DNA of 64,000 bases from an uncultured delta proteobacterium (GTDB lineage: Bacteria; Desulfobacterota; Binatia; UBA9968). Position 1 is the stretch's first letter. Every line of letters begins with the position of its first letter. Shown in pieces: positions 19,620-39,759 of this stretch. A program made the position numbers and the translations under genes. A model generated the notes under the pieces. That model was not told where the DNA came from. It did no database searches and saw only the letters and a list, made by a program, of their open reading frames with translations. The stretch covers positions 160,001 through 224,000 of the forward strand of contig CAVUVW010000017.1 of NCBI GenBank assembly GCA_963745035.1. The letters are read 5' to 3'.

Positions 19620-20622
19620 TCATTTGATTACCGATCCGCTCGCGCCAGGACATTCGGTGGAATCGTCAGACCGATCTGCTTCGCGGTTTTGAGATTGATC
19701 ACGAAATCAAATTTCGTCGGCCCCTCGACCGGTAGATCTGCGGGTTTTGTTCCTTTGAGGATTTTGTCCACGTAAGCGGCGACACGGCGATATATAAAGA
19801 TGTAGTCTGGTCCGTAGGACATGAGTCCGCCAGCTTCCACGAACTCCCTGTCTCCGTACATGGTTGGAAGGCGGCTCTTTCCCGCAAGTTCCGCGATCTG
19901 TGGGTGGTGAATAGCGGTAAGAGGATTCCTCAGAACGAGCAGTGCTTGAGCACGGCCCTTGCTGGCGGCTAGAATGCCGGTTCAATTTCCTTGGGAGTCT
20001 GTACATCTAGGTTTTGGATCTGCAGCCCGAACGTTTTGCGGCAACTTCCGTCTCTTTCAACACTTGTGGGTTGCCGGGGACTTTCGAATTACCGAAGAAA
20101 GCTACACGGGAGAGCTTGGGGATGGCCTCCTTCAGAACCTCCAGTCGCTTCCCGGCCAAGCTCGGCTGAAGTGAGGCAAGCCCCGTGATATTTCCGCCCG
20201 GCCGCGCCACGCTGGCGACGTAGCCCTGATCCGACAGGATCGCTAACGTTTGTAATGACGATGGGGATTGTTCTGGTAGCATTCTTAGCATGCGAGATTG
20301 CCGGACCTGCTGCCCAGATGACCTCAACATTGAGACGCACTAACTCCTCCGCAAGATTGGGTAGCCGGTCCACTTTTCCTTCGGCATAGCGGTATTCGAT
20401 GACGATATTCTTGCCTTCCAGGTAACCCAGATCGCGCATTGCCTGTTGAAATGTCTCGACCGGAAGAGTGCCAGGCGCATCGGCTCTCAGCACGCCTACT
20501 CTGCGGACCTTTGCAGGCTCCTGCGCCGACGCAGAATAGCTAAGCGCAAGGAGCATGGCGCAAAGCGCGATGGAGAAGAGGCTCTTGCTGACGACTGACC
20601 ACTGACTACTGACTACTTTCAT
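19620..20622 (-). pseudogene. Array unit U3, frameshifted
   Basis: [23 protein letters not shown] start; fragments 20089-20622, 20007-20330, 19628-19861. Confidence 0.82.
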
Positions 20623-21605
20623 CGGATCACCTTATCCGCCCGCGCCAGCACATTCGGCGGAATCGTCAGGCCGATCTGCTTCGCCGCTTTCAGATTGATG
20701 ATCAACTCGAACTTCGTCGGTTGCTCCACCGGCAAGATCGGCGGGCTTGGCGCCTTTCAGAATCTTGTCCACGTAAGTGGCGGCGCGCCGGTACAAGTCG
20801 ATGATGCTCACGCCGTAGCTCATGAGCCCGCCGGCTTCCACAAACTGGCTCTGCGGATATATCGCCGGGAGCCGGCTCTTTACCGCGAGTTCTACAATCT
20901 GTGTTCGGTGAGAATGGAGACGCAGCTTGGCACCACATAAGGACTGCGTCAGCCCGCCCCTTGCCTGCGGCTCGGAATGCAGTCTCAATATCCTTTGGAA
21001 CCAGTACGTCTAGGTATTGAAGCTTGCACTCTGAACGCCCCTGCGGCGAGTTCCGTTTCTTTTAACGATTGTGCGTTGCCCGGCTGGGTCGAAGTCCCGA
21101 AGACGGCCACGCGGGAGAGCTTAGGAACGATCTCTTTCAAAAGCTCCAGTTGTTTTCCGCTTAGCTCCGGGCGCTGCGTTGACAATCCGGTAATGTTCCC
21201 GCCGGGTCGCGCAAGGCTGGCGACGAACCCGTTTCCAACCGGATCGGCATCCTGCGCCATGACAATGGGAATCGTAGTGGTTGCTTCCTTCGTGGCACGA
21301 GTCGGTAGCGGACCAGCCGTGACGATGACGTCTACCTTGAGACGCACTAGTTCGGCCGCAAGCGCGGGGAGGCGATCGAGTTTTCCCTCCGCATATCGAG
21401 TACTCAATGACAATATTTTTCCCCTCCACGTACCCAAGCTCGCGCAGACCCTGACGGAATGCCTCGATGCGGGCCGAGACAGTGGAAGGGCAGACAGCAT
21501 TAGGTATCCTATCCGGGGAACTTTCGTTGGCTGCTGCGCCTCGACAGACGAGCAAAGCGCAAAGAGCATGGCGCAAAGAGCAAGGACACGTGATTTTTTT
21601 TTCAT
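20619..21605 (-). pseudogene. Array unit U4, frameshifted
   Basis: MKKKSRVLALCAMLFAL start; stop overlaps U3 start (ATGA). Confidence 0.82.
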
Positions 21606-21662
21606 GGCTTTTTCTCTGTCTCGATCTACTCGACCCTCGACACTCTGACACTCGCCTCCGTC

Positions 21663-22640
21663 TCACTTGATCACTTGATTCGCCCGCTCGAGCACGCGGC
21701 TCGGAATTGTCAGACCAATCTGTTTTGCCGCCTTAAGGTTAATGACGAATTCAAACTTCGTTGCCTGCTGCACCGGCAAATCAGCCGGTTTGGCGCCTTT
21801 CAAGATCTTGTCCACGTAAACAGCCGCGCGCCGATAGAGGTCATCGTAGTCCGCCCCGTAGGACATGAGACCGCCCTCATCGACAAACTCCTTCTGTGGG
21901 TAAATAGCCGGCAACCGGTATTTGCCGGCAAGCTCGACGATCCGCTTTCTTTCGGCGAAAAAGGGGCGAGTGGCGGTCGTCATAATCGCGTCGACCTGCT
22001 TCTGCTTTGCGGTTTGAAAGGCGCTCTCTAAACCTTTGGCGTCGGGTTGAGTCTCGATCTCCTCCAATTTTAGCTTCAGTGCCAGAGCCGCAGGCCTGAG
22101 CTCTTTCAGTTGGAGGTCTGCTGCTATGCCGCCTCCCGGCGGCCGCAGAAGTCCAACTCGGGCGAGCTTGGGGACCGCGTCCTTGAGTATCTCTAGCCTT
22201 TTGGTGTTTAGCTCGGGCGATAAACTCGAGAGCCCGGTGACATTGCCTCCCGGCCGCGCCAGACTGGCAACCAAACCTGCACCCACGGGGTCTCCAGCGT
22301 TCGTCATCACGATGGGGATGTCGTAGTGGTCGCTTTCTTGGCCGCCAACGCCGGCTGCCGTCCCTGCGACCACGATTAGATCAACCTTAAGACGAACCAG
22401 GTCCGCCGCAAGCTCAGGTAGGCGCTCATACTTTTGCTCGGCAAATCGGTACTCGATGGTGATATTCTTTCCCTCGATCCATCCAAGCTTGCTCAGCTCT
22501 TGCCGGAACGCCTCCACGAGGACCGCGCTACCAGAAGCAGTGCTTGTATCCAGGAAACCTATGCGGAAGATTTTCCCTGTCTGCTGCGCCTCGGCGGACG
22601 AGCAAAGCGCAAAGAGCATGGCGCAAAGCGCAGCAGACAA
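21663..22640 (-). CDS. Array unit U5 (ERANQVIK type); open, with a short internally out-of-frame segment
   Basis: 325-aa ORF; GVGGQESDHYD replaces the expected LAAKKATTT, implying compensating indels. Confidence 0.85.
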   Translation of the reverse strand: MSAALCAMLFALCSSAEAQQTGKIFRIGFLDTSTASGSAVLVEAFRQELSKLGWIEGKNITIEYRFAEQKYERLPELAADLVRLKVDLIVVAGTAAGVGGQESDHYDIPIVMTNAGDPVGAGLVASLARPGGNVTGLSSLSPELNTKRLEILKDAVPKLARVGLLRPPGGGIAADLQLKELRPAALALKLKLEEIETQPDAKGLESAFQTAKQKQVDAIMTTATRPFFAERKRIVELAGKYRLPAIYPQKEFVDEGGLMSYGADYDDLYRRAAVYVDKILKGAKPADLPVQQATKFEFVINLKAAKQIGLTIPSRVLERANQVIK

Positions 22641-22693
22641 CGAGTTTCAGTTTCGTCCTGTTGCCTAATGCCTGTTGCCTGATCTGCCTGTTC

Positions 22694-23625
22694 TCACTTG
22701 ATCACCCTGTCCGCCCGCGCCAGCACGCTCGGCGGAATCGTCAGGCCGATCTGCTTCGCTGTTTTCAGATTGATCACCAGCTCGAATTTCGTCGGCTGCT
22801 CCACCGGCAGATCGGCAGGCTTGGCTCCCTTCAGGATCTTGTCCACGTAGATAGGCGACGCGCCGGTAGCTGTCCGCCAGGTCCGCCCCGTAGGACATGA
22901 GCCCACCGGCATCTACAGCTTCTCTGTTGGTGTACATCGACGGTAACCGGCTCTTTAACGCAAAGCCCACGATCCGTTTTGGTTAGCACTCATTAGCGCG
23001 CTCGCGGTCACATAGAGTCCATCCGGGCGCTCCTTGCTCAGCGCAGCAAATACCCTCTCGAAACCGTCCGCATCTCGTACCTCCCAAGACCGAACAGTCA
23101 ACCCCAGCGCACGCGCCGCGACCGGGAGAACCTCTTTCACCTCGACGTACACTGGCCGGATTGGCCGGATCGTAGAGAACCGCGACACGGGCAAGTTTGG
23201 GAACCGCTTCTTTGAGCAGCTCCAGCCGCTTCCCGCCTAGTTCTCTGGAAAGGTTGTAACGCCGGTGACGTTGCCGCCGGGACGGGCAAGGCTTTCAACC
23301 AGGCCTGCCTCGACAGGATCGGACCCAACGCCCAACATAACGATGGGAATCGTCTTGGTCGCATTCTTGGCCGCCCGGATCAGCAAGTCCCCTCCTGCTA
23401 CCACGATGATATCAACTTTGAGACGCACCAGCTCGGCCGCAAGCTCAGGGAACCGATCGAGCTTCCCCTCCGCATATCGGTACTCGATGGCGATGTTCTG
23501 TCCTTCGATGTAGCCGAGCTCGCGCAGAGCCAGCCGAATTGCCTCGGAACGGGTGGAATCGCTAGCTGGATCCGTCCCGATAGATACCCTATCCGCGGGA
23601 CTTTCTTCGGCTGCTGCGCCTCGGC
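22694..23625 (-). pseudogene. Array unit U6, lacks own leader (fused to U7), frameshifted
   Basis: Begins directly at AEAQQPKKVPRIGYL. Confidence 0.8.
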
Positions 23626-24560
23626 GACGCGCCGGTAGCTGTCCGCGAGGTCCGCCCCGTAGGACATGAGCCCGCCGGCATCTACAGCTTCTCTGCTGCC
23701 GTACATCGACGGTAACCGGCTCTTTAACGCAAAGGCCGCGATCCGTTTTCCGTTAGCACCCATTAGCGGCCGCCCGGCGGCACATAGAGTCCATCCGGGC
23801 GCTGCTTGCCCATCGCAGCAAAAACACTCTCGAAACCGTCCGCAGCTCGTACCTCCCAAGGCTGAATAGTCAACCCCAGCGCACGCGCCGCGGCTGGGAG
23901 AACTTCTTTCACCTCGGGTACGCTGGCCGGATTGGTCGGATCGTAGAGAACCGCGACACGGGCAAGTTTGGGAACGGCTTCTTTGAGCAGCTCCAGCCGC
24001 TTACCGCCTAGTTCTCCGTAGTAATGTTTGTAACGCCGGTGACGTTGCCGCCGGGACGGGCAAGGCTTTCAACCAGGCCTGCCTCAACAGGATCGGACCC
24101 AGGGCCCACCATAACGATGGGAATCGTCTTGGTCGCATTCTTGGCCGCCTGGATCCACGGGTCCCCTCCTGCTACCACGATGATATCGACCTTGAGACGC
24201 ACCAACTCGGCCGCAAGCGCGGCGCCCGATCGACGCTTCCCCTCGGCATATCGGTACTCGATGGCGATGTTCTGTCCTTCAATGTGGCCAAGCTCGCGCA
24301 GAGCCAGCCGAATTGCCTCGGAACGGGTGGACTCAATAGCTGGATCGTCGCGACGATAGATACCCTATCCGAGGGACTTTCTTCGGCTGCTGCGCCTCGG
24401 CCACTGCCCCAGCAACGCGAACGCGACAGCGAGAGCGAGAATGCCCGCCATTTTGATTTTGGACCTTCGATAAGACTCAGAACAGGTTTTGGATCTTCGA
24501 TTGTCGGAGTGAGATCGAAATAGCTGCCCGATTATTTCAAGCATCTTCGCATCTACTCAT
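23626..24560 (-). pseudogene. Array unit U7, lacks 3' tail (fused to U6), frameshifted
   Basis: Ends [12 protein letters not shown] then runs into U6. Confidence 0.8.
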
Positions 24561-24591
24561 CCAATCGTCTGACTTAACCTCTGCCTCTGGC

Positions 24592-25549
24592 TCACTTGAT
24601 CACCTGATTCGCCCGCTCCAGCACGCGACTCGGAATTGTCAGACCGATCTGTTTTGCCGCCTTGAGATTGATGATGAATTCAAACTTCGTTGCCTGCTGC
24701 ACCGGCAAATCAGCCGGTTTGGCGCCTTTCAAGATCTTGTCCACGTAACCAGCCGCGCGCCGATAGAGGTCATCGTAGTCCGCCCCATAGGACATGAGGC
24801 CGCCCTCATCGACAAACTCCTTCTGTGGGTAAATAGCCGGCAACCGGTATTTGCCGGCAAGCTCGACGATCCGCTTTCTTTCGGCGAAAAAGGGGCGAGT
24901 GGTGATCGTCATAATCGCGTCGACCTGCTTCTGCTTTGCGGTTTGAAAGGCGCTCTCTAAACCTTTGGCATCGGGTTGAGTCTCGATCTCCTCCAATTTT
25001 AGCTTCAGTGCCAGAGCCGCAGGCCTGAGCTCTTTCAGTTGGAGGTCTGCTGCTACGCTCCCGCCGGCCGCAGAAGTCCAACTCGGGCGAGCTTGGGGAC
25101 CGCGTCCTTAAGTATCTCTAGCCTTTTGGTATTTAGCTCGGGCGTTAAACTCGAGAGCCCGGTGACATTGCCTCCCGGCCGCGCCAGACTGGCAACCAAA
25201 CCTGCACCCACAGGGTCCGCAGCGTTCGTCATCACGATGGGGATGGTAGTAGTCGCTTTCTTCGCCGCTAACGCCGCGGTGTCCCTGAGACCACAATCAG
25301 ATCAACCTTAAGACGAACCAAGTCCGCCGCAAGCTCAGGCAGGCGCTCATTCTTTTGCTCTGCAAATCGGTACTCGATGGTGATATTCTTTCCCTCAATC
25401 CATCCAAGCTTGCTCAGCTCTTGCCGGAACGCGTCCACGAGGACCGCGCTACCGGAAGCAGTGCTATTATCCAGGAAACCTATGCGGAAGATTTTCCCTG
25501 TCTGCTGCGCCTCAGACGGCACCACAAAGCGCAAAGAGCATGAGCGCAA
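24592..25549 (-). pseudogene. Array unit U8 (ERANQVIK type, near-copy of U5), frameshifted
   Basis: Fragments 24592-24996, 25053-25235, 25268-25549. Confidence 0.82.
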
Positions 25550-25628
25550 AACGCCGCCAGATCAAGATTTTGGATTTTAGATTCTGATTGCCGTAACTGA
25601 GCCTGATTTCCTCGTTGTCCTCAATCGA

Positions 25629-26687
25629 TCACTTGATCACCTTATCCGCCCGCGCCAGCACGTTCTGCGGAATCGTCAGGCCGATCTGCTTCGCGGTTTT
25701 GAGATTGATCACCAGCTCGAACTTTGTCGGCTGCTCGACTGGCAGGTCGGCAGGCTTGGCGCCTTTCAGGATTTTGTCGACGTAGGTGGCGACGCGCCGG
25801 TAGCTGTCGGGGAGGTCCGCGCCGTAGGACATGAGCCCACCGCCATTTACATCTTCTCTGCTGTCTCGTCGATGGTAACCGGCTCTTTAACGCAAAGGCC
25901 ACAATGCGTTTTTGGTTAGCATTTAGGAGCGGGCCCCCCGCGACGTAAAGTCCATCCGGGCGCTCCTTACTTAGCGCCGCGAATACCTGCTCGAAACCGC
26001 CCGCAGCTCGTACCTCCCAAGCTTGGACAGCCAACTTCAGGGCGAGAGCCGCGACGTGGAAGGTCTTCTTTCACCTCGACATATTGGCTGGAGTGGCCGG
26101 CTGGTAGATAACCGCGACACGGGCAACTTTGGGAACTGCTTCCTTCAGGAGCTCCAGCCTCTTACCGCCTAATTTTCCGTCGAGATTTGTGAGCCCGGTA
26201 ACATTGACGCCCGGCCGGGCGAGGCTTTCAATTAGGCCTGCCTCAACAGGGTCGTTCCCGGCGCCCACCATAACGATGGGAATCGTCTTGGTCGCATCCT
26301 TTGCCGCCCTGATCCAATGGATCCCTCCCGCTATGATCATGATGTCGACCTTGAGACGCACCAAGTCGGCCGCAAGCTCGGGAAGCGCGCTCGGTTTTCC
26401 CCTCGGAATAGCGGTACTCGAAGTCGATATTCTGTCCTTCTATGTAGCCAAGCTCCCGCAGAGCCAACCGAATTCCCTCAGCGCGAGCGGACTCATGAGA
26501 TGGGTCCCGCGAAGATATGTAGCCAATCCGGGTGAGTTTCTTCGGCTGCTGCGCCAGTGCCACAGCCACAACCAACACGAGCATGTAAACGATTACCGAA
26601 AGCCCCAACCATTTTCGATTTTGGATTGCTCGATTTTGGATTAGCAGATAAAGAAATCAGAATTCGGAGCCACGAGTTTTCACTCAT
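25629..26687 (-). pseudogene. Array unit U9, frameshifted
   Basis: MSENSWLRILISLSANPKS leader; KERPDGLYV-type body. Confidence 0.82.
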
Positions 26688-26731
26688 ACGTTTTTCTCTC
26701 AATCCAAAATCCAAAATCGAAAATCCAAAAT

Positions 26732-27726
26732 TCACTTAATGACCTTGTCCGCCCTGGCCAGCACATTGGGAGGAATTGTGAGACCGATCTGCTTTGCCGC
26801 TTTTAAGTTAATGACCAGCTCGAACTTCGTCGGCTGCTCTACTGGCAATTCGGCAGGTTTGGCGCCCTTCAAGATCTTGTCTACGTAGATTGCGGCACGT
26901 CGATACTGCTCTGGCTGGCTCGATCCATAGGACCATCAGACCGCCGGCGCGAATCCATTCCTGCTCCGGGTACATCGACGGCAGGCGGTACTTGCTGGCT
27001 AATTCGACCAGCCGCGTTCGGTGCCGATTGAAGACACCGCCCGTTCGAACTATCAGTGCTTGGGCTCGGCCCTTCGCTATCGATCGGAATGCATTGTCGA
27101 AATCGTCAGGCCCTAGCGCCACAACCGATTGAAGCTGAACACCGAACGCTCGGGCTGCTTCGTCGGCGTGTTTCTTTACCTCGCGTGTACGAGACTGGAT
27201 CTGATCCAAAAGAAGAGCCATGCGGGAAGCTTTGGGAACTACTTCTTTCAGCAGCTCTACACGTTTCCCTGCCAATTGACTGCTAATGTTGGTGAGGCCG
27301 GTGACGTTGGCGCCGGGTCGCGCCAAGTCGGCAACAAGCCCGCCCGTAACGGGATCATCGCCATTGCCCATAATAATGGGAATTGTGCTTGTTGCCTTTT
27401 GAGCTGCACGAGTTGTCGCGGTCCCGCTTGTGACGATAATGTCGACGTTCTGACGGACAGCTTCGGCGATGCGCTCATTAGCGCGTTCCGGCTGGAGCTC
27501 GAGCCATAAAAATCTCGACGAAAACATTTGTCCCTTCAATGTAACCGAGCTCGCGCAATCCCTGGAGAAAAGCTGCGATATTAACCTGTCCCCCTGGATC
27601 ACCGGAACGCTCGGGTCGTGTAAGCACGATCCTCGGAATCTTCTTCGTCGGCTGTTGCGCTTCGGCGTGAGAGGCAAAGCGCAAAGAGCATGGCGCAAAG
27701 AGCAAGGCAGAAATCTTTCGCTTCAT
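26732..27726 (-). pseudogene. Array unit U10, divergent body, frameshifted
   Basis: MKRKISALL start; NGDDPVTGGLVADLARPGAN. Confidence 0.8.
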
Positions 27727-30004: not shown

Positions 30005-30015
30005 TTTTAAACAGA

Positions 30016-32199: not shown

Positions 32200-32254
32200 T
32201 TGTCTTGGCGTTGTCAGCGGGAAATGCCGTTAACCCACACGCGCGGCAAATCGA

Positions 32255-32283
32255 TTGACGAAAGCCGATGCGGCGTTTAATCT
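32255..32283 (+). promoter_or_regulatory. Putative promoter of TA module 1 (probably leaderless mRNA)
   Basis: TTGACG-17 nt-TAATCT, with ATG 6 nt downstream and no RBS. Confidence 0.55.
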
Positions 32284-32289
32284 CCAACC

Positions 32290-32535: not shown

Positions 32536-32824
32536 ACTCCATCCTGACGCAATCGCTGAGGCAAAGGCGGCTTACGATTGGTATGCTGAACGCAATCCCT
32601 CTGTCGCGAATGCTTTCATCTCTGAACTCGATCACGCCATCAGCCAAATCCAAAAGACTCCGGAGCGGTGGGCCATGCATTTGCGTGGCACGAGAAAGTT
32701 TCTCCTCCGACGTTTCCCGTACGCGGTAGTTTACCGGATCACCCAATCCACCATTCAGGTTATCGCTGTGGCCCATGGGCGCCGCCGTCCCGGCTATTGG
32801 AAGTCGCGGCTTCAAATCGGGTAA
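32516..32824 (+). CDS. RelE/ParE family type II toxin
   Basis: HPDAIAEAKAAYDWY...RRFPYAVVY...VIAVAHGRRRPGYW. Confidence 0.9.
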   Translation: MAAPSVRLHPDAIAEAKAAYDWYAERNPSVANAFISELDHAISQIQKTPERWAMHLRGTRKFLLRRFPYAVVYRITQSTIQVIAVAHGRRRPGYWKSRLQIG

Positions 32825-32847
32825 GTCCATACTGAGATGATCACTGT

Positions 32848-33954
32848 TCACTTGATGACTTGATTCGCCCGCTCCAACACGCGGTTCGGAATTGTCAGGC
32901 CGATCTGTTTCGCTGCTTTAAGGTTGATGACGAATTCAAATTTCGTCGCTTGCTGCACCGGCAAATCAGCCGGTTTGGCACCTTTCAAGATCTTGTCCAC
33001 ATAATCAGCCGCGCGGCGATAGAGGTCATCGAAGTCTGTCCCGTAGGACATCAGGCCGCCCTCATCGACAAACTCCTTCCGCCAGTAAATCGCCGGCAAG
33101 CGGAATTTGACGGCAAGCTCGACGATCCGCTTTCTTTCGGCGAAAAAGAAGGGACCGGCGGTGGTCATAATCGCGCCCACCTGCTTCTGCTTCGCGGTAT
33201 TAAAGGCGCTCTCTAAACCCTTGGCGTCGCGTTGAGTTTCGATCTCCTCCAATTCGAGCTTCAGTGCTAGAGCCGCAGGCCTGAGCGCTTTCATTTGGAG
33301 GTCTACAGCTAAGCTGGTTGTCGACCCCCGCAGAAGACCAACTCGGGCGAGCTTGAGGAACGCGTCCTTGAGTACCTCTAGTCTTTTAGTATTTAACTCC
33401 GGCGCTAGACCCGAGAATCCCGTAACATTGCCTCCCGGCCGCGCCAGATTGACAGCCAGACCGGCACCCACGGGGTCCGAAGCGATCGCCACGATGGGGA
33501 TGGCAGTAGTGGCGCTCTTGGCCGATAACGCCACCGCCGGCGACGTACCCACGATGACATCAACCTTGAGACGGACTAGGTCGGCCGCAAGCTCAGGCAG
33601 GCGCTCTGACTTTTGCTCGGAAAACCGGTACTCGAAGACGATATTTTTTCCTTCGATCCAGCCAAGCTTGCGCAGCTCCTGTCGGAACGCGTCCACGAGG
33701 ACCGCGCTACCGGAAGCAGTGCTGTTATCGAGGAACCCGATGCGGAAAACTTTTCCGGTCTGCTGCGCGTCGACAGAACCGCAAAGCGCAAAGAGCATGG
33801 CGCATAAACTAGAGATCAGAAGTCGCAGGTCAGAGATCGGCTTCAAATCAAAGCGGCAGACGGCACAGAGAAAACGTCCGGCGCTCGGACGCTGATGGTT
33901 CATTCCGGATCTGGGCTTTCTGACCTCTGACATCTGACCGCTGATCTCTGTCAT
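32848..33954 (-). CDS. Array unit U15 (ERANQVIK type), intact, with repeat-derived N-terminal extension
   Basis: 368-aa ORF; MTEISGQMSEVR...PISDLRLLIS is encoded by inverted TCAGAGG-type arms. Confidence 0.88.
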   Translation of the reverse strand: MTEISGQMSEVRKPRSGMNHQRPSAGRFLCAVCRFDLKPISDLRLLISSLCAMLFALCGSVDAQQTGKVFRIGFLDNSTASGSAVLVDAFRQELRKLGWIEGKNIVFEYRFSEQKSERLPELAADLVRLKVDVIVGTSPAVALSAKSATTAIPIVAIASDPVGAGLAVNLARPGGNVTGFSGLAPELNTKRLEVLKDAFLKLARVGLLRGSTTSLAVDLQMKALRPAALALKLELEEIETQRDAKGLESAFNTAKQKQVGAIMTTAGPFFFAERKRIVELAVKFRLPAIYWRKEFVDEGGLMSYGTDFDDLYRRAADYVDKILKGAKPADLPVQQATKFEFVINLKAAKQIGLTIPNRVLERANQVIK

Positions 33955-33960
33955 TTGAGT

Positions 33961-33989
33961 TTGACTTGAATCACCAGCTGCATTATAAA
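33961..33989 (+). promoter_or_regulatory. Putative promoter of TA module 2
   Basis: TTGACT-17 nt-TATAAA; RBS AAGGAG at 34011-34016. Confidence 0.6.
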
Positions 33990-34020
33990 TAACCTCATAA
34001 GTCTTCTAACAAGGAGCATT

Positions 34021-34263
34021 ATGGGAGCAATAGCCGTTTCTAAAAAGGAAGAAGAGCAAATCGAAAGGTTGCGTAAAGACCTGGGGATCGCAAGCAAATC
34101 GGCACTGATCCGCACCGCGCTAAGAACTTTGGAAAAGAAAAGCCAGGAAGAAAAATTACGCCGCGATATCCAGGACTCCGTGAATCGCTGCGGCGCGGCC
34201 GATCGTGAGGAGAACAGAGAACTTTTCAACGCCGGTGTCGCGCGCGCGGATGGGAAGGAGTAA
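34021..34263 (+). CDS. Putative RHH-like antitoxin
   Basis: 80 aa, IERLRKDLGIASKSALIRTAL; directly upstream of PemK toxin. Confidence 0.75.
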   Translation: MGAIAVSKKEEEQIERLRKDLGIASKSALIRTALRTLEKKSQEEKLRRDIQDSVNRCGAADREENRELFNAGVARADGKE

Positions 34264-34608
34264 ATGCCCGTCAAACGGGGGCACTTATACATCATCGATT
34301 TCAATCCTCGCATCAAAACCAAGCCCGGAAAGCTTCGGCCTGGCCTAGTGCTCCAATCCGATCTCGTCAATGAGGCCGAGTATCCGTCGACTATCGTCAT
34401 TCCAACCACGACCCGGCTTGTGGAAAATCCGGGAATTCTTCGAATTCGCCTCAAGAAGGGCCAAGGCGGAGTCTCTCGCGACAGCGATCTACTGTTAGGC
34501 CAAGTGATCGCTGTGGCCAACGAGTCTTTCCGCCACGAGATTGGCTCCTTGCCAAATCCTATGATGGAAGAAGTGGAAAACCGTATCCGCATCATTCTAA
34601 ACTTGTGA
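34264..34608 (+). CDS. PemK/MazF family type II toxin
   Basis: KRGHLYIIDFNP...GKLRPGLVLQSD...STIVIPTTT. Confidence 0.9.
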   Translation: MPVKRGHLYIIDFNPRIKTKPGKLRPGLVLQSDLVNEAEYPSTIVIPTTTRLVENPGILRIRLKKGQGGVSRDSDLLLGQVIAVANESFRHEIGSLPNPMMEEVENRIRIILNL

Positions 34609-34679
34609 GAAATCTCGGCTTGGTTAGTTCTTTGGATTTTCGATTAAAGACCATCTTCCTTACGCCTCGCCCCTCACGC

Positions 34680-35664
34680 CTATCGAATCACCTTATTCGC
34701 TCGCTCAAGCACACGGTTCGGAATTGTCAGGCCGATTTGTTTCGCTGCTTTGAGGTTGATAACGAATTCAAACTTCGTCGCTTGCTGCACCGGCAAATCA
34801 GCCGGTTTGGCACCTTTCAAGATCTTGTCCACGTAAACAGCGGCGCGCCGAAAGAGGTCAGTGTTGTCCGTCCCATACGACATGAGACCTCCCTCATCGA
34901 CAAACCCCTTCTGGGTAAATAGCCGGCAACCGGTATTTGACGGCAAGCTCGACGATCCGCTTTCTTTCTGCGAAAAAGGGGCGGGTGGACATCGTCATAA
35001 TCGCGTTGACCTGCTTTTGCTTTGCCGTTTGAAAGGCGCTCTCTAAACCTTTGGCGTCGGGTTGAGCATCGATCTCCTCCAATTTCAGCTTCAGTGCCAC
35101 AGCGGCAGGCCTGATTTCTTTCAGTTGGAGGTCTCTTCCTACGCTGCCCGTTGTCCCCCGCAGAAACCCAACTCGGGCGAGCTTGGGGACCGAGTCTTTG
35201 AGTACCTCTAGCCTTTTGTGTTTAGCTCGGGCGATAAACTCGACAAGCCGGTGACGTTGCCACCCGGCCGCGCCAGGCTCGCAACCAAGCCTGCACCCAC
35301 AGGGTTCCCAGCGTTCGTCATCACGATGGGGATCGTAGTCGTGGCGCTCTTGGCCGCTAATGCTGCTGGGGTCGCTGCGACCACGATTAGATCAACCTTA
35401 AGACGAACCAGCTCCGCCGCAAGCTCAGGTAGCCGGTCATTTTTCCTCTGCAAATCGGGACTCGATGGTGAGATTCTTTCCCTCGCTCCAGCCAAGCTTG
35501 CTCAGCTCTTGCCGTAACCTCTCCAAGCGGTCCGCGATTCTGGAAGTAATGCTATCATCCAGGTAACCTATGCGGAAGATTTTTCCTGTCTGTTGCGCGT
35601 CGACAGAACCGCAAAGCGCATAGAGCACGGCGCAAAGCGCAATTGCAAAAATCTCTCGTTTCAA
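34680..35664 (-). pseudogene. Array unit U16 (ERANKVIR type), frameshifted
   Basis: MKREIFAIALCAVLYAL start; four fragments in track. Confidence 0.82.
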
Positions 35665-35701
35665 TTTCTCACCTCACGCCTGACGCCTCACCACTCACGC
35701 C

Positions 35702-36733
35702 TCACCGAATCACCCGATCCGCCCGCGCCAACACTTTCTGGGGAATGGTGACGCCAATCTGCTTTGCCGTTTTCAAGTTGATTACCAGTTCAAATTTTGT
35801 CGGCTGCTCGACGGGAAGATCGGCGGGTTTGGCGCCCTTCAGGATTTTGTCCAAGTAAGTGGCTACGCGCCGGTGGCTGTCCTCGAGGTCCGACCCGTAG
35901 GACATGAGCCCACCGGCTTCTACAGCTTCTCTGAACGCATACGTTGATGGTAACCGGCTCTGTATTGCAAAGCCCGCGATCCGTTTTTGGTTGGCTCTCA
36001 TCAGAAGGCTCGAAGTCAAGTAGAGCCCATCCGGGCGCTCCTTGTTGACGGCAGAGAACACCTGGTCAAAACCTTCCGCATCTCGTATTTCCCAAGGCCG
36101 AATCGTCAACTTCAGCGCGCGCGCCGCGACTGGGAGAACCTCTTTCAGCTCGAATGTACTCCCCCGACTGGACGGATCGTAAAGAACCGCGACGCGGGCA
36201 ACTTTGGGAACGGCTTCTTTGAGCAGCTTCAGCCGCTTACCGGCTAGTTCTGGAGAAAGGTTTGTAATGCCGGTGACGTTGCCCCCGGGACGCGCAAGGT
36301 TTTCAATTAGCCCTGCCTCGACAGGATCGAGCCCTTGGCCCAACAGAACGATGGGTATTGTGCTGGTCGCATTCTTGGCCGCGCGGATCACTGCGGTCCC
36401 TCCTGCGGCCACAAGAATATCCATCTTGAGACGCACCAACTCGGCCGCTAGCTCCGGGAGCCGATCGACCTTTCCCTCCGCATAACGGTATTCGATGGCG
36501 ATGTTCCGTCCTTCTATATAGCCGAGCTCGCGCAGAGCCAGCCGAATGGCCTCGGCACGGGCAGACTCATTAGTGGGGTCGCCCGCCGATAAATAGCCTA
36601 ACCGCGAGGTTTTCTTCGCCTGCTGCGCGTTAGCGGACGGGCAAAGCGCAAAGAGCACGGCGCAAAACGCGCAGACAACGAGTTTCAGTTTCTTACTGTT
36701 GCCTACCGCCTGTTGCCTGTTGCCTGTGATCAT
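35702..36733 (-). CDS. Array unit U17, intact
   Basis: 343-aa [14 protein letters not shown] leader. Confidence 0.9.
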   Translation of the reverse strand: MITGNRQQAVGNSKKLKLVVCAFCAVLFALCPSANAQQAKKTSRLGYLSAGDPTNESARAEAIRLALRELGYIEGRNIAIEYRYAEGKVDRLPELAAELVRLKMDILVAAGGTAVIRAAKNATSTIPIVLLGQGLDPVEAGLIENLARPGGNVTGITNLSPELAGKRLKLLKEAVPKVARVAVLYDPSSRGSTFELKEVLPVAARALKLTIRPWEIRDAEGFDQVFSAVNKERPDGLYLTSSLLMRANQKRIAGFAIQSRLPSTYAFREAVEAGGLMSYGSDLEDSHRRVATYLDKILKGAKPADLPVEQPTKFELVINLKTAKQIGVTIPQKVLARADRVIR

Positions 36734-37725
36734 CGAATCACTTTATCCGCGCTGGCCAGCACGTTTTGCGAGATCGTGAGGCCTAGCTGTTTCGCCGTCT
36801 TCAGATTGATCACCAGCTCGAACTTCGTCGGCTGCTCCACTGGAAGGTCTGCGGGCTTGGCGCCCTTTAGGATCTTGTCGACATAAGTGGCGGCGCGCCT
36901 GAAACTTTCCGTATCGCTGGATGAATAGGACATGAGGCCACCGGCCTCGACGTACTGTCTGTCCTCGTGTATTGAAGGCAGTCGGTTCTTTACGGCAAGG
37001 GCCGCAATCCGCTTTGGGTAACTTGCGGCCAGCGGACCGGTAACCGAAATGATCGCGCTCGCGCGCCCCTTGGTCGCGGCTTGGAATGCTGCCTCGTAAT
37101 CAGGATTCGGACCGCGCACCTCTAGGAATAAAAACTGCATCTTTAGTGCGCGCGCCGCAGCCTCATAATCTTTGAAAGCAATAGCCACCGCCGAGCTGCT
37201 CGCCTCTCCAAGGACTCCGACGCGCGATATCCCGGGAACCGCTTCTTTGAGCAGTTCTAGCCGCTTTCCGCTCAATTCTCGGATGAGGCCGGTGAGCCCG
37301 GTAATGTTCCCGCCGGGGCGCGCTAGGCTATCGATTAGCCCAGTGGCGACTGGATCCTGAGTTGTCACCATGACAATGGGAGTCGTCTTGGTCGCCTCCT
37401 TGGCTGCGCGGATCGCTGATAGAGATCTAACGACAAGCACATCGACCTTGAGTTGCACGAGTTCGGCCACTTGGTTTGTAATCCGGTCAGGCTTTCCTTC
37501 ACCGTAGCTATACTCGATCAGGATGTTTTTCCCCTCAATGTAACCGAGATCTCGCAGCCCTTGCCGGAATGCTTCGGCGAACGGATGGGGAGAGGTGGGG
37601 GTGGGGCTGACCCTTTGCGCCAGAAATCCTATGCGAGGTACTTTTCCTGTCTGCTGCGCCTCGACAAGAGAAGTAGTTGCCAGAAAGAGAGTTGCTAGCA
37701 GCCTGAGAGTGATTCTCTTGTTCAT
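36730..37725 (-). CDS. Array unit U18, intact
   Basis: 331-aa ORF with signal peptide. Confidence 0.9.
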   Translation of the reverse strand: MNKRITLRLLATLFLATTSLVEAQQTGKVPRIGFLAQRVSPTPTSPHPFAEAFRQGLRDLGYIEGKNILIEYSYGEGKPDRITNQVAELVQLKVDVLVVRSLSAIRAAKEATKTTPIVMVTTQDPVATGLIDSLARPGGNITGLTGLIRELSGKRLELLKEAVPGISRVGVLGEASSSAVAIAFKDYEAAARALKMQFLFLEVRGPNPDYEAAFQAATKGRASAIISVTGPLAASYPKRIAALAVKNRLPSIHEDRQYVEAGGLMSYSSSDTESFRRAATYVDKILKGAKPADLPVEQPTKFELVINLKTAKQLGLTISQNVLASADKVIR

Positions 37726-37763
37726 ATTTTTCTCTTACTCACGCCTCAGCCTGCTGCCTGTTT

Positions 37764-38788
37764 TCACTTGATCACTCTATCCGCCCGCGCCAGCACACTC
37801 GGCGGAATCGTCAGACCGATTTGCCTGGCCGCCTTGATATTGATGACCAACTCGAATTTCGTCGGTTGCTCCACCGGAAGGTCTGCCGGCTTTGCGCCTT
37901 TAAGAATCTTGTCGACATAGGTCGCCGCGCGCCGGGACAAGTCAATAAAGCTTGTGGCATAACTGACCAGGCCGCCGGCTTCGACAAATTCATCCCGTCC
38001 GTACGTCGCCGGGAATTTGTTCTTCGCTGCGAACTCGACGATCCGATTTCTGTGTGCGTTCATCAGCGGACCGCCAGCGATCATCAATCCACCGGGGCGC
38101 CATTTCATGATCGCTTGGAATTGACTATCGAAGTCTTCGGCCTTTGCCAGTTCGAACCTTTGCGTTTGTACGTTTAGCACTCGGGCGGTTGGCTCTATCT
38201 CGTCCACGCCGATCCCTTCGGTGACGTTCGTCAAATCCCTTAAAACCGCCACACGCGAGAGCTTGGGAGTAATTTCTTTAAGCAGCTCCAATCGCTTGTC
38301 ACCGAGATCCCCGCTGACATTCGTAAGCCCCGTGATATTTCCAGCCGGCCGCGCGAGACTGCTGACAAATCCCGACGCCACCGGATCGTTGTCCGACATC
38401 ATGACGATGGGAATCGTAGTGGTCGCTTCTTTGGCAGGGCGGGTCGCTGAACTTCCCGTCGTGACAATCACATCGACGTGGAGATGGACCAGCTCGGCGG
38501 CAAGCTTGGTCATTCGCTGGGCGTCGTTGTCCGCGAAGCGGTAATCGATGGTAATGTTTTGTCCCTCGATGTATCCCAGCTTTCGTAGTGCCTCTCGAAA
38601 TGCTTCGACACGATCTTTTTGAACCGTTGCCCGGTTGAGAGAAAGGAACCCGACTCGGGAATCTTTTTCGCAGACTGCTGCGCCTCGGCGGACGAGCAAA
38701 ACGCAAGGATCACGGCGCAAAGAACGCAAGCAGCGAGCTTCAGATTCCTACTGTTGCCTACCGCCTGTTGCCTGTTGCCTGTGATCAT
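37764..38788 (-). pseudogene. Array unit U19, one frameshift near 38660
   Basis: Leader in 38510-38788 frame, body in 37764-38729 frame. Confidence 0.82.
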
Positions 38789-39759
38789 CGAATCACCCGA
38801 TCCGCCCGCGCCAGCACACTCGGCGGGATGGTCAAGCCGATCTGCTTGGCAGCCTTGAGATTGATAACCAACTCGAACTTCGTCGGCTGCTCCACCGGCA
38901 AGTCGGCGGGTTTGGCACCCTTCAGAATTTTGTCGACGTAGACCGCAGCGCGCTGGAACAACGCTGGGAAGCTCGTGCCGTAAGACATAAGGCCGCCGGC
39001 TTCCACGTACTCCGTGAAGCTGTACATTGCCGGGAGTTTCTGCCTGGCCACCGCTTCTGTGATCAGCTTCCGGTTAAAGAAGATCAATGGATCCGGAAGC
39101 TCGAAGAGTGCCTGCGGTCGGTCCTTCCCAATGCCGGATAAAACCTTTTGAATCTCTTCCTGGTTTCGCGCCTCCAGGGAAATCAATGTAACTTTCAGCG
39201 CCTGCGCTTCGGTCAGACTTTCCTTGTACGCGGCCTGTTGACCCGGCTGGTTCGGGTTCCAGAGAACGGCCACGCGCGAGAGGCGTGGAACAACTTCCTT
39301 CAGTAACTCGAGCCGTTTCCCGGTCAAATCCGGAGCGATATGCGTCAGCCCAGTTATGTTTCCTCCGGGCTTCGCCAGGCTGGCGACGAATCCCGATCCT
39401 ACGGGGTCGGTGACTCCCGCCATGATGATCGGGATCGAGCTGGTTTGTTCCTTGGCGAACCGGATCGCAGGAGTAGCCGAAGAAACGATGACATCGACTT
39501 TGAGGCGAACAAAGTCGGCGACGAAGCCTGGCAAACTTTCCAACTTGCCGTCGGCCCAGCGGTACTCGATCACGATGTTGTGTCCGTCCACGTACCCAAG
39601 CTCGCGCAGCCCCTGTACAAACGCGGTAGCATGATGCCCCGCAGTGGCTTGGGAACCGGCTCCCACATAACCGATCTTTTTCGCTGGCTGCGCCAGGGCC
39701 ACCGCCCCACAGGGGGCCAGAGTCACAAAGATTGCAAACAGTCCAACGAAGCGTTTCAT
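38785..39759 (-). CDS. Array unit U20, intact
   Basis: 324-aa ORF. Confidence 0.9.
   Translation of the reverse strand: MKRFVGLFAIFVTLAPCGAVALAQPAKKIGYVGAGSQATAGHHATAFVQGLRELGYVDGHNIVIEYRWADGKLESLPGFVADFVRLKVDVIVSSATPAIRFAKEQTSSIPIIMAGVTDPVGSGFVASLAKPGGNITGLTHIAPDLTGKRLELLKEVVPRLSRVAVLWNPNQPGQQAAYKESLTEAQALKVTLISLEARNQEEIQKVLSGIGKDRPQALFELPDPLIFFNRKLITEAVARQKLPAMYSFTEYVEAGGLMSYGTSFPALFQRAAVYVDKILKGAKPADLPVEQPTKFELVINLKAAKQIGLTIPPSVLARADRVIR

What the first reader, a model, noticed from the sequence alone, without database searches (positions are those of the whole stretch)
20585..38800. Leaders and bodies are shuffled independently
Seen: the same junction [14 protein letters not shown](N/D)S..LKL (GGCAACA heptamers, ATGA overlap) precedes three dissimilar bodies (U14, U17, U19). 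Conversely the closely related ERAN(Q/K)VI bodies U5, U8, U15 and U16 each have a different leader repeat (GGCAACA, AATCTAA/AATCCAA, TCAGAGG, GTGAGGC types). A shared block CTTTGCGCCATGCTCTTTGCGCTTTGC (LCAMLFALC) offers a second crossover point. Inference: combinatorial exchange occurs at two homology blocks.
Basis: partly seen in the sequence, partly recalled or inferred. Interest (0 to 1): 0.7.

Follow-up and report, generated by a model that had tools for sequence, protein, structure and literature searches.

The report
Leader-swapping array of binding-protein gene copies
A soil bacterium carries a row of 24 related transporter binding-protein genes, many of them broken, in which the short front part (spacer plus export signal) has been repeatedly recombined onto unrelated gene bodies, an example of a known way for tandem gene families to evolve.

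Summary
Window 17549-44560 (minus strand) holds 24 tandem PF04392 ABC substrate-binding-protein units. Only 7 of 23 scored units keep an open frame. The genome holds about 89 such units in several arrays. U14, U17 and U19 share a ~105-nt leader (82-90% identity) in front of bodies 45-65% identical. U5 and U8 are 96-97% identical from the Ala-Gln-Gln (AQQ) signal-cleavage codons to the stop, yet have unrelated leaders.

- AU tests reject congruent leader and body trees.
- Leader similarity is uncorrelated with body similarity (Mantel r 0.05). The tail travels with the body (r 0.50).
- Similarity boundaries pile up at the AQQ codons, at the stop codon and at the start of the conserved tail.
- A likelihood scan puts the main breakpoint in the signal-peptide block-to-AQQ stretch.

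Best reading: homologous recombination and gene conversion among tandem paralogs at conserved blocks, as described for the Staphylococcus aureus lpl cluster.

The heptamer "leader repeats" are genome-wide dispersed elements (529 period-7 arrays, 47 of the GGCAACA type), so sharing a repeat type alone does not prove exchange. No near-identical cassettes, recombinase or expression site point to a programmed system.

Other assemblies show the same leader classes on different bodies, so an assembly chimera is unlikely.

The parts
17549..44560 (-). Tandem array of 24 PF04392 (ABC_sub_bind) substrate-binding-protein units, U1-U24, each about 1.0-1.1 kb and all co-directional
   Evidence: tblastn map. 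Tail motifs. All 7 full-length units tested match PF04392, E 3e-45 to 7e-54. 7 of 23 scored units keep an open frame.
36629..36733 (-). U17 leader, module A. The ATG overlaps the U18 stop (ATGA). It contains a (GGCAACA)n heptamer array, a KKLKL n-region and the signal-peptide block, and ends at AQQ (first base 36628).
   Evidence: TRF array 36696-36727 and signal-peptide block 36641-36670
31969..32073 (-). U14 leader, module A. It is 88% identical to the U17 leader over query 5-135.
38684..38788 (-). U19 leader, module A. It is 87% identical to the U17 leader. It is out of frame with the U19 body ORF 37764-38729.
22590..22693 (-). U5 leader, a module A relative. It is 85% identical to the U17 leader over query 19-139. 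It has no ATGA overlap.
35702..36628 (-). U17 body plus tail. It belongs to the body clade U2, U9, U6, U23 (100/99), and its nearest relative is U6 at 83%.
31037..31968 (-). U14 body plus tail. It is an isolated lineage, at most 62% identical to any other window unit, and is frameshifted.
37764..38683 (-). U19 body plus tail. It is an isolated lineage, at most 59% identical to any other window unit.
21663..22589 (-). U5 body plus tail (ERANQVIK clade, intact frame)
24592..25510 (-). U8 body plus tail. It is 96% identical to U5 (761 tree columns; one 931-nt blastn match at 94.8%) from 3 nt before AQQ to the stop. It carries several small non-homopolymer deletions.
25511..25628 (-). U8 leader, with AATCTAA/AATCCAA heptamers. 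It is unrelated to the U5 leader upstream of the signal-peptide block.
32848..33768 (-). U15 body plus tail (ERANQVIK clade, intact)
33769..33954 (-). U15 leader, with a TCAGAGG-type array and a longer element also found in four leaders of the array on contig C2 (C2_3279p, C2_10211p, C2_12563p, C2_14689p)
34680..35598 (-). U16 body plus tail (ERANKVIR, frameshifted in this assembly)
35599..35701 (-). U16 leader. The GGCGTGA heptamers and n-region resemble U1 and U13, but the signal-peptide c-region GCGGTTCTGTCGAC is shared with U15. This places a breakpoint inside the signal-peptide block.
   Evidence: alignment
23398..23859 (-). U7-U6 fusion ORF reading ...[33 protein letters not shown] deletion joined the U7 pre-tail region directly to the AQQ block of U6 (AQQ first base 23619).
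32070..32192 (-). Orphan tail fragment '14x' (last 40 codons only), which supplies the VIR* stop in front of the U14 leader
32290..32824 (+). Antitoxin (PF09720) and ParE-like toxin (PF05016) pair, inserted where the body of unit 14x should be
34021..34608 (+). Ribbon-helix-helix and MazF/PemK toxin-antitoxin pair, inserted between U16 and U15
39767..40246 (-). 23S_rRNA_IVP (four-helix-bundle) gene in the U20 leader, bracketed by inverted heptamer arrays (ATTTTCG)n and (AATC.AA)n

Best explanation
This is a birth-and-death multigene family: orphan periplasmic substrate-binding proteins (Pfam PF04392), about 89 units in the genome and 24 in this array.

Each unit behaves as two evolutionary modules:
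- a leader of about 105-190 nt: the spacer after the upstream stop codon, usually holding a short heptamer array, plus the signal peptide;
- the mature body with its conserved 51-codon tail.

Homologous recombination between misaligned or ectopic paralogs (unequal crossing-over and short- or long-tract gene conversion) resolves preferentially in the few stretches conserved at nucleotide level in most units. These are the signal-peptide h-region block plus the Ala-Gln-Gln (AQQ) cleavage codons, and the C-terminal tail up to the stop codon. The result is that any leader can sit in front of any body.

The spacers themselves are also turned over by genome-wide dispersed heptamer-array elements.

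Shown: the modular discordance, the positions of the boundaries, and the same leader classes on different bodies in other assemblies. Inferred: that RecA-type homologous recombination is the agent, and the direction and timing of individual events.
For: Tree incongruence.
- Body data reject {U14,U17,U19} (delta lnL 114.5, p-AU 4e-57) and {U5,U14,U17,U19} (delta lnL 419, p 5e-9).
- The leader tree groups U14/U17/U19 at 99/97 and adds U5 at 84/82. Leader data reject {U5,U8,U15,U16} (p 0.0026).
- Fitted on the other partition's topology, leader data lose 72.8 lnL and body data lose 593.6 lnL.

Decoupling.
- Mantel leader vs body r 0.05 (p 0.18). Body halves r 0.63, tail vs body r 0.50 (both p 0.001).
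- Heptamer-class labels need 32 changes on the body tree, against a shuffle mean of 31.6.

Boundaries, among 131 in-register matches of >=85% identity and >=150 nt:
- starts: 16 within 25 nt before AQQ, 60 at the tail start, 22 at the upstream tail start;
- ends: 87 at the stop codon, 24 at the upstream stop;
- 16 of 23 long matches start within 8 nt of AQQ.

Likelihood scan: the optimum is between the signal-peptide block and AQQ.

Visible joints:
- the U16 chimera inside the signal-peptide block;
- the U7-U6 fusion at AQQ;
- a 331-nt U14/U2 match (87%) that starts in the tail and runs 230-241 nt past the stop into the next unit, which looks like a duplication breakpoint in the tail.

Nucleotide-level conservation: synonymous 4-fold identity among distant intact pairs is 0.38-0.45 in the signal peptide and 0.39-0.42 in the tail, against 0.27-0.38 (mostly 0.30-0.33) in the body.

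Other assemblies: bodies >=80% identical to the U6/C6_6847 clade sit behind leader classes A, C, D and G in other MAGs. A leader close to that of U17 (L077) precedes a body whose best match in this genome is U4, at 77%.
Against: - No pair of units is near-identical. The best full-length pair is 96%, so no event can be shown to be recent, and rates are unknown.
- Leader module A is about as well conserved in another assembly (L077) as among the four copies here. Part of its similarity may therefore reflect selection on the leader rather than recent conversion.
- The heptamer cores occur at many unrelated intergenic sites: only 9 of 47 GGCAACA arrays lie at these genes. Some leader differences may come from element turnover rather than exchange between units.
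- The {U5,U8} pair alone is not rejected by the leader data (p 0.35).
- The likelihood gain in the breakpoint scan also includes rate differences between partitions.
- The deep body tree is poorly resolved: 41 of 75 branches have under 80% support. This inflates parsimony change counts.
- The public contigs laid on the region are short. None of the pieces shown bridges the three A-type junctions.
Confidence: 0.75

Rival explanations
1. There is no exchange between units. Leaders differ because the spacers are overwritten independently by genome-wide dispersed heptamer-array elements and by small inserts (toxin-antitoxin pairs, the IVP gene). Leaders look alike because the same element family landed at several junctions.
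For: - The genome has 529 period-7 arrays. Of the 47 GGCAACA-family arrays, 38 lie away from these genes, and they share a common architecture.
- The arrays are enriched next to ORF ends: 199 of 529 against 70 of 529 random positions.
- D-type leaders are inverted arrays around a small ORF, or around the IVP gene in U20.
- In 30 other genomes of the genus, the heptamer part and the signal-peptide part of the U17 leader mostly match separately.
Against: - U5, U14, U17 and U19 share sequence beyond the heptamers, GAAACTGAAACTCGTTGTCTGC plus the signal peptide. U1, U13 and U16 likewise share n-region and signal-peptide sequence.
- U16 is chimeric inside the signal-peptide coding block.
- Long body matches stop at AQQ, about 60-100 nt downstream of the heptamers and inside coding sequence. 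Spacer turnover does not explain this.
Confidence: 0.1
2. Differential conservation without transfer. All units descend from ancestors that already had their present leaders. Leaders are held constant at nucleotide level by selection (RNA or regulatory function) while bodies diverged.
For: - Module A is also conserved in another assembly (L077).
- The signal-peptide block is 77-89% conserved across the genus.
- Synonymous identity is raised in the signal peptide.
Against: - This model predicts that units sharing a leader form body clades. The data reject that.
- U5 and U8 bodies are 96% identical, yet the sequence upstream of the signal-peptide block is unalignable, and U8 is a decaying copy.
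- There is no leader-body correlation at all.
Confidence: 0.05
3. Assembly or polishing artefact. The metagenome-assembled contig joins leaders and bodies of different paralogs or strains, and its frameshifts are consensus errors.
For: - The genome is a 28-contig assembly with 5.8% estimated contamination, and two arrays sit at contig ends.
- Contigs from other samples carry indels exactly at some of the window's frameshift sites: 26053/26080, 30771/30919 and 34909.
- One X1 contig carries 299 nt identical to the U17 body, then continues into U7-like sequence instead of the U17 leader.
Against: - The three A leaders differ from each other by 10-18%, and each is embedded in unique flanks.
- Independent contigs bridge the U17-tail/U16-leader junction (35511-35734) and the U15-leader/toxin-antitoxin/U16-tail stretch (33875-34793).
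- The same leader classes in front of different bodies are seen in many independent assemblies.
- About 36 kb of non-array genes in the window show full-length Pfam matches.
Confidence: 0.04
4. Programmed cassette system. Promoterless or broken array units serve as silent donors that are copied by directed gene conversion into expressed loci, or heptamer slippage in translated leaders switches units on and off (opa-, pilS- or vls-like).
For: - The units have conserved ends around a variable body.
- About half of the units are broken: 42 of 81 are intact.
- The array has no excess of promoter-like sites: 3 found against 7.7 expected.
- Solitary copies carry a distinct conserved upstream region (class G).
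- In U3, U14, U17 and U19 the heptamer array is translated from an ATG that overlaps the upstream stop.
Against: - There are no near-identical donor-recipient segments. The best array-to-solitary identity is about 92%.
- No recombinase or invertase is present among the window proteins scanned.
- All units are co-directional.
- No 7-nt copy-number variants appear among the differences listed.
- Most heptamer arrays lie upstream of the ribosome-binding site, not in the ORF.
Confidence: 0.05

Closest known systems
Staphylococcus aureus lpl (lipoprotein-like) tandem paralog cluster, Tsuru & Kobayashi 2008, PMC2568036 (abstract and outline read)
   Same: - Co-directional tandem paralogs of an exported protein.
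- A conserved nucleotide stretch inside every ORF acts as a recombination site.
- Phylogenies of the regions on either side of it are significantly incongruent.
- The region downstream of one ORF stays linked to the 5' part of the next. Here that link is weak: r 0.18, p 0.005.
   Different: - Here the recombination zone lies at the boundary between signal peptide and mature protein, not in the middle of the ORF. What is reassorted is therefore the export/regulatory leader against the whole mature protein.
- A second boundary at the stop codon further loosens the link to the upstream gene.
- The family is about 89 units in several arrays, roughly half of them broken.
- The spacers carry dispersed heptamer arrays.
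- The evidence here is within one genome plus other species, not strain comparisons.
PF04392 ABC-transporter substrate-binding proteins with solved structures 3LKV, 3LFT and 6HNI
   Same: There is a full-length Pfam match. phmmer E-values are 1e-32 to 4e-23 against these chains over residues ~40-342 of U17.
   Different: - The array copies have no adjacent permease or ATPase.
- The only PF02653 permease next to PF04392-like genes lies at C14:49-52 kb, beside two distant copies.
- Ligands are unknown.
Intergenic heptamer direct repeats (TAACTGA) of Beggiatoaceae, cyanobacteria and Bacteroidetes, MacGregor 2015, PMC4679880 (abstract and outline read)
   Same: Many intergenic sets of two to six tandem heptamers sit close to gene ends or starts, with no mechanism of spread known. 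The paper suggests a post-transcriptional role.
   Different: - Here there are several unrelated heptamer families (GGCAACA, CGATCCT, GGATTTT, GGCGTGA and others), not one.
- They often lie directly after a stop codon and are sometimes in inverted pairs.
- Some are translated as the N-terminus of the next protein.
Leader-conserved, body-variable surface protein families: Borrelia Erp/OspE-F 'upstream homology box' lipoproteins and Neisseria opa. Recalled from memory; the Borrelia papers appeared only in the search listing.
   Same: A conserved upstream region plus leader peptide sits in front of dissimilar mature proteins. In opa there are short repeats inside the leader coding region.
   Different: - Those families belong to host-associated pathogens, with documented antigenic or phase variation.
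- Here nothing shows switching. The organism is an uncultured soil lineage and the proteins are transporter binding proteins.

Membership tests
PF04392 ABC_sub_bind substrate-binding proteins | Match to the Pfam model above its gathering score over most of its length | tested here: met
   All 7 full-length units tested score 154.7-183.4 bits against a cut-off of 25.9, covering profile positions ~17-293 of 293.
PF04392 ABC_sub_bind substrate-binding proteins | Sequence similarity to solved members | tested here: met
   3lkv_A E 1e-32, 3lft_A 5.6e-28, 6hni_A 3.8e-23
PF04392 ABC_sub_bind substrate-binding proteins | Encoded next to the ABC permease and ATPase genes it serves | tested here: not met
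   There is no ABC membrane or ATPase domain among the 30 flanking window proteins, nor beside two solitary copies. Of 12 PF02653 hits in the genome, only C14:49370-50233 lies by (distant) PF04392 copies. This is a feature of operon context, not of family membership.
Tandem paralog cluster diversified by recombination at a conserved intragenic block (S. aureus lpl type) | Co-directional tandem paralogs sharing a highly conserved nucleotide block | tested here: met
   There are 24 co-directional units. The signal-peptide block occurs 10 times with <=2 mismatches in the array, and GCGCAGCAG-type AQQ codons are present in nearly all units.
Tandem paralog cluster diversified by recombination at a conserved intragenic block (S. 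aureus lpl type) | Significantly incongruent phylogenies on the two sides of the block | tested here: met
   AU tests, topology swap, Mantel tests.
Tandem paralog cluster diversified by recombination at a conserved intragenic block (S. aureus lpl type) | The 3' part of one ORF, the spacer and the 5' part of the next ORF are inherited as one unit | tested here: inconclusive
   The correlation is weak but significant: leader vs upstream tail r 0.18, p 0.005; vs upstream body r 0.13, p 0.028 (45 units). Most >=85% matches nevertheless end at the stop codon.
Tandem paralog cluster diversified by recombination at a conserved intragenic block (S. aureus lpl type) | Rearrangements between strains of one species | tested here: inconclusive
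   There is only one hint: an X1 contig identical to the U17 body over 299 nt that continues into U7-like sequence. No other species of the genus is closer than ~82%.
Programmed cassette or phase variation (pilE/pilS, vls, opa type) | Near-identical donor and expressed segments from recent directed conversion | tested here: not met
   The best full-length pair is U5/U8 at 96%. Array-to-solitary pairs reach at most ~92%.
Programmed cassette or phase variation (pilE/pilS, vls, opa type) | Repeat copy-number variation that shifts the reading frame | tested here: inconclusive
   No 7-nt indel is among the listed differences in four samples, but the cover is short contigs and many rows were not shown.
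Programmed cassette or phase variation (pilE/pilS, vls, opa type) | Dedicated recombinase or invertase at the locus | tested here: not met
   None is present among the 42 window proteins scanned against Pfam. ORFs under 150 aa outside the array were not scanned.
Intergenic heptamer direct-repeat elements (TAACTGA / STRR-like) | Many short tandem heptamer sets in intergenic DNA near gene ends | tested here: met
   There are 529 period-7 arrays in 7.43 Mb. 199 have a >=100-codon ORF ending within 25 nt, against 70 of 529 random positions.
Intergenic heptamer direct-repeat elements (TAACTGA / STRR-like) | The TAACTGA unit itself | tested here: not met
   The units here are GGCAACA, CGATCCT, ATCCTTT, GGATTTT, CGATTTT, GGCGTGA and others. 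They resemble the known elements in kind only.

The most novel reading that the evidence does not exclude
The leaders may be a small, lineage-wide set of interchangeable regulatory and export cassettes. Each would be built around a dispersed heptamer-array element that a post-transcriptional factor reads. Recombination at the signal-peptide/AQQ block would then be the means by which this lineage reassorts 'how and when a binding protein is made' with 'what it binds', across about 89 mostly orphan binding-protein genes.

On this reading the broken array copies are a standing reservoir of bodies. The signal-peptide h-region, itself a degenerate (GCTTTGC)n heptamer array, may have arisen from such an element.
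Probability: 0.15. Interest if true: 0.65.

Novelty: new variant of a known kind. Interest (0 to 1): 0.42.

Why it matters
The case shows, with formal tests, that in a very large bacterial paralog family the evolving unit is not the gene. It is two modules joined at the signal-peptide cleavage site.

- Gene trees of such families are meaningless unless they are partitioned.
- Automated annotation will mis-pair orthologs.
- The export and translation-initiation context of a binding protein can be swapped without touching its ligand-binding body.
- The case links this swapping to an unstudied class of dispersed heptamer arrays in the uncultured Binatia lineage, which may be regulatory.

The recombination mechanism itself is a known one, so the result extends known biology and does not overturn it.

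Tried and rejected
- Public reads. Contigs of four runs from four studies (X1, X5, X9, X10) were laid on 20500-40400. The pieces are mostly under 1 kb. None of those shown bridges the A-type junctions at 32070, 36730 or 38785, so they neither confirm nor refute those pairings. Many short 'joints' (side under 30 nt) between conserved tails were ignored as paralog or other-organism cross-matches. Uncovered parts were not interpreted.
- Heptamer class labels on the body tree looked like perfect independence. I do not rely on them alone, because the classes are genome-wide elements and the deep tree is unresolved.
- Rfam found no family at gathering score in the whole window.
- The promoter and terminator consensus scan of 26000-45000 found fewer sites than in shuffles.
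- Orthologous arrays in relatives. No other species is closer than ~82% to U17, the same as its paralogs, so positional orthology could not be used.
- In one search the match starts at subject position 1 are forced by how I cut the database at AQQ. They are not used as boundary evidence.
- Literature. 'Binatota' + 'substrate-binding protein' gave 0 papers. 'PF04392' gave 6 papers, none on arrays judging by title and abstract start. 'Binatia' + genome + repeats gave 7 papers holding the terms (6 listed), none relevant by title.
- A diversity-generating retroelement was considered because of the Avd-like IVP gene. No reverse transcriptase is among the window proteins scanned, and this was not pursued.
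- One search was an unfinished script. One search stopped on a key error and was rerun. In one search a landmark search failed, so the printed 'leader' started at the first alignment column; one search fixed this.
- No structure prediction, complex prediction or large protein database search was run. They would not bear on the question.

Full report
WHAT IS THERE

The window is G000:C17:160001-224000. Between 17549 and 44560, all on the minus strand, lie 24 head-to-tail units of about 1.0-1.1 kb (tblastn map; tail motifs).

All seven full-length products tested are PF04392 ABC-transporter substrate-binding proteins (E 3e-45 to 7e-54). The nearest solved chains are 3LKV, 3LFT and 6HNI.

Each unit reads, 5' to 3':
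- the last codons and stop of the upstream unit;
- a spacer that nearly always holds a 3-5-copy heptamer array;
- usually a ribosome-binding site and a start codon;
- a signal peptide whose hydrophobic core is the block CTTTGCGCCATGCTCTTTGCGCTTTGC in most units;
- the cleavage codons GCG CAG CAG (Ala-Gln-Gln, 'AQQ');
- about 750 nt of variable body;
- a conserved 51-codon tail ([48 protein letters not shown]).

Inserted in the array are two toxin-antitoxin pairs (32290-32824 and 34021-34608), a 23S_rRNA_IVP gene (39767-40246), two orphan tail fragments, and a U7-U6 fusion.

Only 7 of 23 scored units (U5, U11, U15, U17, U18, U20, U24) keep an open frame from before AQQ to the stop. Genome-wide the figure is 42 of 81.

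The flanking 36 kb holds ordinary, full-length genes and no ABC permease or ATPase.

The genome holds about 89 tails of this family, with further arrays on C2 (22 units, at a contig end), C14 and C15. Before alignment I dropped 5 of the 65 non-window rows that lacked the tail motif or were truncated. I dropped 5 more rows before the trees, and those 5 plus U6 before the Mantel tests.

Record titles of relatives fit that: Candidatus Binatia, 'Deltaproteobacteria', Syntrophobacteraceae and Rokubacteria MAGs.

The junction string with the ATGA stop/start overlap occurs exactly three times in the genome, before U14, U17 and U19.

In 100-nt windows these three are 87-90% identical at the leader and fall to 41-68% in the body.

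U5 and U8 are 96-97% identical from 3 nt before AQQ to the stop. They are unalignable upstream of the signal-peptide block.

U5, U8, U15 and U16 form a 100/100 body clade but carry four different heptamer types.

The LCAMLFALC block is specific to the arrays: 4 exact copies and 10 with <=2 mismatches, all here.

FORMAL TESTS

Body data (23 units, 765 columns):
- {U14,U17,U19} is rejected: delta lnL 114.5, p-AU 4e-57.
- {U5,U14,U17,U19} is rejected: delta lnL 419, p-AU 5e-9.

Leader data (16 units, 118 columns):
- U14/U17/U19 are supported at 99/97, with U5 added at 84/82.
- {U5,U8,U15,U16} is rejected (p-AU 0.0026).
- {U5,U8} alone is not rejected (p 0.35).

A GARD-like single-breakpoint scan of 14 units with alignable leaders has its optimum at columns 60-110 (signal-peptide block at 68, AQQ at 107; delta AICc about 350). 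A second local optimum lies at the tail start (about 140). With topologies swapped, leader data lose 72.8 lnL and body data lose 593.6 lnL. Part of the AICc gain is rate heterogeneity.

Mantel tests over 77 units:

| Comparison | Spearman r | p |
|---|---|---|
| leader vs N-half of body | 0.05 | 0.18 |
| leader vs C-half of body | 0.01 | 0.40 |
| body halves | 0.63 | 0.001 |
| tail vs body | 0.50 | 0.001 |

The window alone gives the same picture.

So leader and body are decoupled, and the tail is not a separate module.

With directly adjacent neighbours (45 units), the leader, with the 12 nt it shares with the upstream gene removed, correlates weakly with the upstream unit's tail (r 0.18, p 0.005) and body (r 0.13, p 0.028). 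It does not correlate with its own unit.

WHERE THE JOINTS ARE

Among 131 in-register pairwise matches of >=85% identity and >=150 nt:
- starts fall 16 times within 25 nt before AQQ, 60 times at the tail start, and 22 times at the upstream tail start;
- ends fall 87 times at the stop and 24 times at the upstream stop.

Of 23 matches of 850 nt or more, 16 begin within 8 nt of AQQ.

Individual joints are visible:
- U16 has the heptamers and n-region of U1/U13 but the signal-peptide c-region of U15.
- U7 is fused to U6 at ...YRRVA|EAQQ....
- A 331-nt U14/U2 match (87%) starts in the tail and runs 230-241 nt past the stop into the next unit. It looks like a duplication whose breakpoint is in the tail.

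Among distant intact pairs, identity at 4-fold synonymous sites is 0.38-0.45 in the signal peptide, 0.39-0.42 in the tail, and 0.27-0.38 (mostly 0.30-0.33) in the body. The blocks are therefore somewhat conserved at nucleotide level beyond what the protein requires. Most of the tail's conservation is still protein constraint.

The 'leader repeats' are not private to these genes.
- The genome has 529 period-7 arrays, 466 period-8 and 853 period-9.
- The GGCAACA family has 47 arrays, 38 of them away from these genes. They share a common architecture: variable first units, then GGCAACAGGCAACAG, often followed by TAAGAA. Some are in inverted pairs.
- 199 of 529 period-7 arrays and 24 of 47 GGCAACA arrays have a >=100-codon ORF ending within 25 nt, against 70 of 529 random positions.

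Sharing a heptamer type is therefore weak evidence of exchange. The random-looking spread of heptamer classes over the body tree (32 changes against 31.6 in shuffles) is not decisive on its own.

What does show exchange is that leader families share sequence beyond the heptamers, and that the breaks lie in coding sequence at AQQ.

IS IT AN ASSEMBLY ARTEFACT?

Probably not.
- The leader copies differ by 10-18%.
- Independent contigs bridge 35511-35734 and 33875-34793.
- The expansion is present in 18 of 18 other genomes of the genus (17 of 17 without the unpublished G005, which is used only in tallies).
- 30 of 79 related loci from other MAGs have a period-7 array in front of the gene, of the same classes.
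- Bodies >=80% identical to the U6/C6_6847 clade sit behind classes A (L036, L037), C (L040, L048), D (L039, L050, L053) and G (L038, L044).
- A leader much like that of U17 (L077) precedes a body whose best match here is U4, at 77%.
- In 30 other genomes of the genus, the whole U17 leader matches at >=85% nowhere. Its heptamer part and its signal-peptide part match separately, and 21 of the 30 genomes have some match (20 of 29 without G005).

Two caveats remain.
- One X1 contig is identical to the U17 body for 299 nt and then continues into U7-like sequence. This is a hint of another pairing in another sample, or a graph artefact.
- Other samples' contigs carry indels exactly at some of the window's frameshift sites (26053/26080, 30771/30919, 34909). 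These are not long homopolymers. Some 'pseudogenes' may therefore be strain-specific, or consensus errors.

MECHANISM

The most likely mechanism (0.75) is ordinary homologous recombination among tandem and dispersed paralogs. It resolves in the few conserved stretches, and spacer turnover by heptamer elements and small inserts is superimposed on it. This is the logic described for the S. aureus lpl cluster (PMC2568036, abstract read), shifted so that the conserved site is the boundary between signal peptide and mature protein.

A programmed system is not supported:
- no near-identical cassettes (maximum 96%);
- no recombinase among the 42 proteins scanned;
- no Rfam family;
- no excess of promoter-like sites.

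Function of the roughly 85 orphan binding proteins is open. The only PF02653 permease next to PF04392-like genes lies at C14:49-52 kb.

VERDICT

It is a new variant of a known kind of paralog-cluster evolution. It is of moderate interest, mainly for its scale, for the sharpness of the module boundary, and for the tie to an undescribed family of dispersed heptamer arrays.

I found nothing in print on such arrays in Binatia. The comparisons with Borrelia Erp and Neisseria opa are recalled from memory and were not read.

Noticed in passing
whole genome; in the window e.g. 3909-3933, 5921-5953, 17521-17550, 57263-57292, 58907-58979: The genome has a census of short tandem arrays of 7-9 nt units in intergenic DNA: 529 period-7, 466 period-8 and 853 period-9 arrays. 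Several unrelated heptamer families recur: GGCAACA 47, CGATCCT 31, ATCCTTT 22, GGATTTT 21, CGATTTT 19, GGCGTGA 18. They are enriched next to ORF ends and are also present in other genomes of the genus.
   Followed up: partly
window 39765-40246 (U20 leader); also 26611-26731, 41183-41217, 42270-42306, 43354-43474: D-type leaders consist of an (ATTTTCG)n array, a small ORF and an inverted (CGAAAAT)n array, which could pair as a long hairpin. In U20 the ORF is a full 23S_rRNA_IVP (four-helix-bundle, Avd-like) gene. The others look like remnants or short upstream ORFs. Two contigs from other samples skip about 67-70 nt between such inverted arrays (26629-26700 and 29908-29976).
   Followed up: partly
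G000:C13:1,730,000-1,797,000: About 11 of the genome's 18 PF05635 (IVP) matches cluster in this region, together with about 10 of the 47 GGCAACA arrays and GTTCAA(A/C)-type repeats. I did not look at what else lies there.
   Followed up: no
window 18492-18521, 21550-21583, 22602-22632, 31981-32010, 35610-35642, 36641-36670: The signal-peptide hydrophobic core (LCAMLFALC) is itself scored by Tandem Repeats Finder as a degenerate (GCAAAGC)n heptamer array. This raises the possibility that the h-region arose from a heptamer element.
   Followed up: no
solitary copies, e.g. G000:C11:143100-144024, C14:129646, C14:134666, C2:62572, C1:1249: Solitary (non-array) copies share a distinct conserved ~100-nt upstream region (...TTCCGTGTCCGTGATAA...), again in front of dissimilar bodies. 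For example, C11_144024 and C14_129646 are 0.85 identical in the leader and 0.60/0.52 in the body. This may be a promoter or 5'-UTR element.
   Followed up: no
window 47874-48208: A 175-nt tandem duplication (1.9 copies, 88% matches) contains CTCCGCG-type short repeats. Its sequence is reminiscent of the element in the U15 leader and in several leaders of the array on contig C2 (...CTCTGCGCCTCCGCGGTGAATC...).
   Followed up: no
window 10890-10926 and 11104-11140: Two 8-nt-unit arrays (TGGAGTGA and CCAACACT) flank the gap between the hydantoinase A and hydantoinase B genes. Similar GGAGTA-type arrays occur in some SBP leaders of other arrays (C2_5341, C14_406959).
   Followed up: no
window 26053/26080, 30771/30919, 34909: Contigs from other samples differ from the window by 1-2-nt indels exactly where U9, U13 and U16 change reading frame. 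By coordinate arithmetic, the 34909 insertion would bring the two U16 ORF pieces into one frame. Pseudogene status may differ between strains, or the consensus may be wrong.
   Followed up: partly
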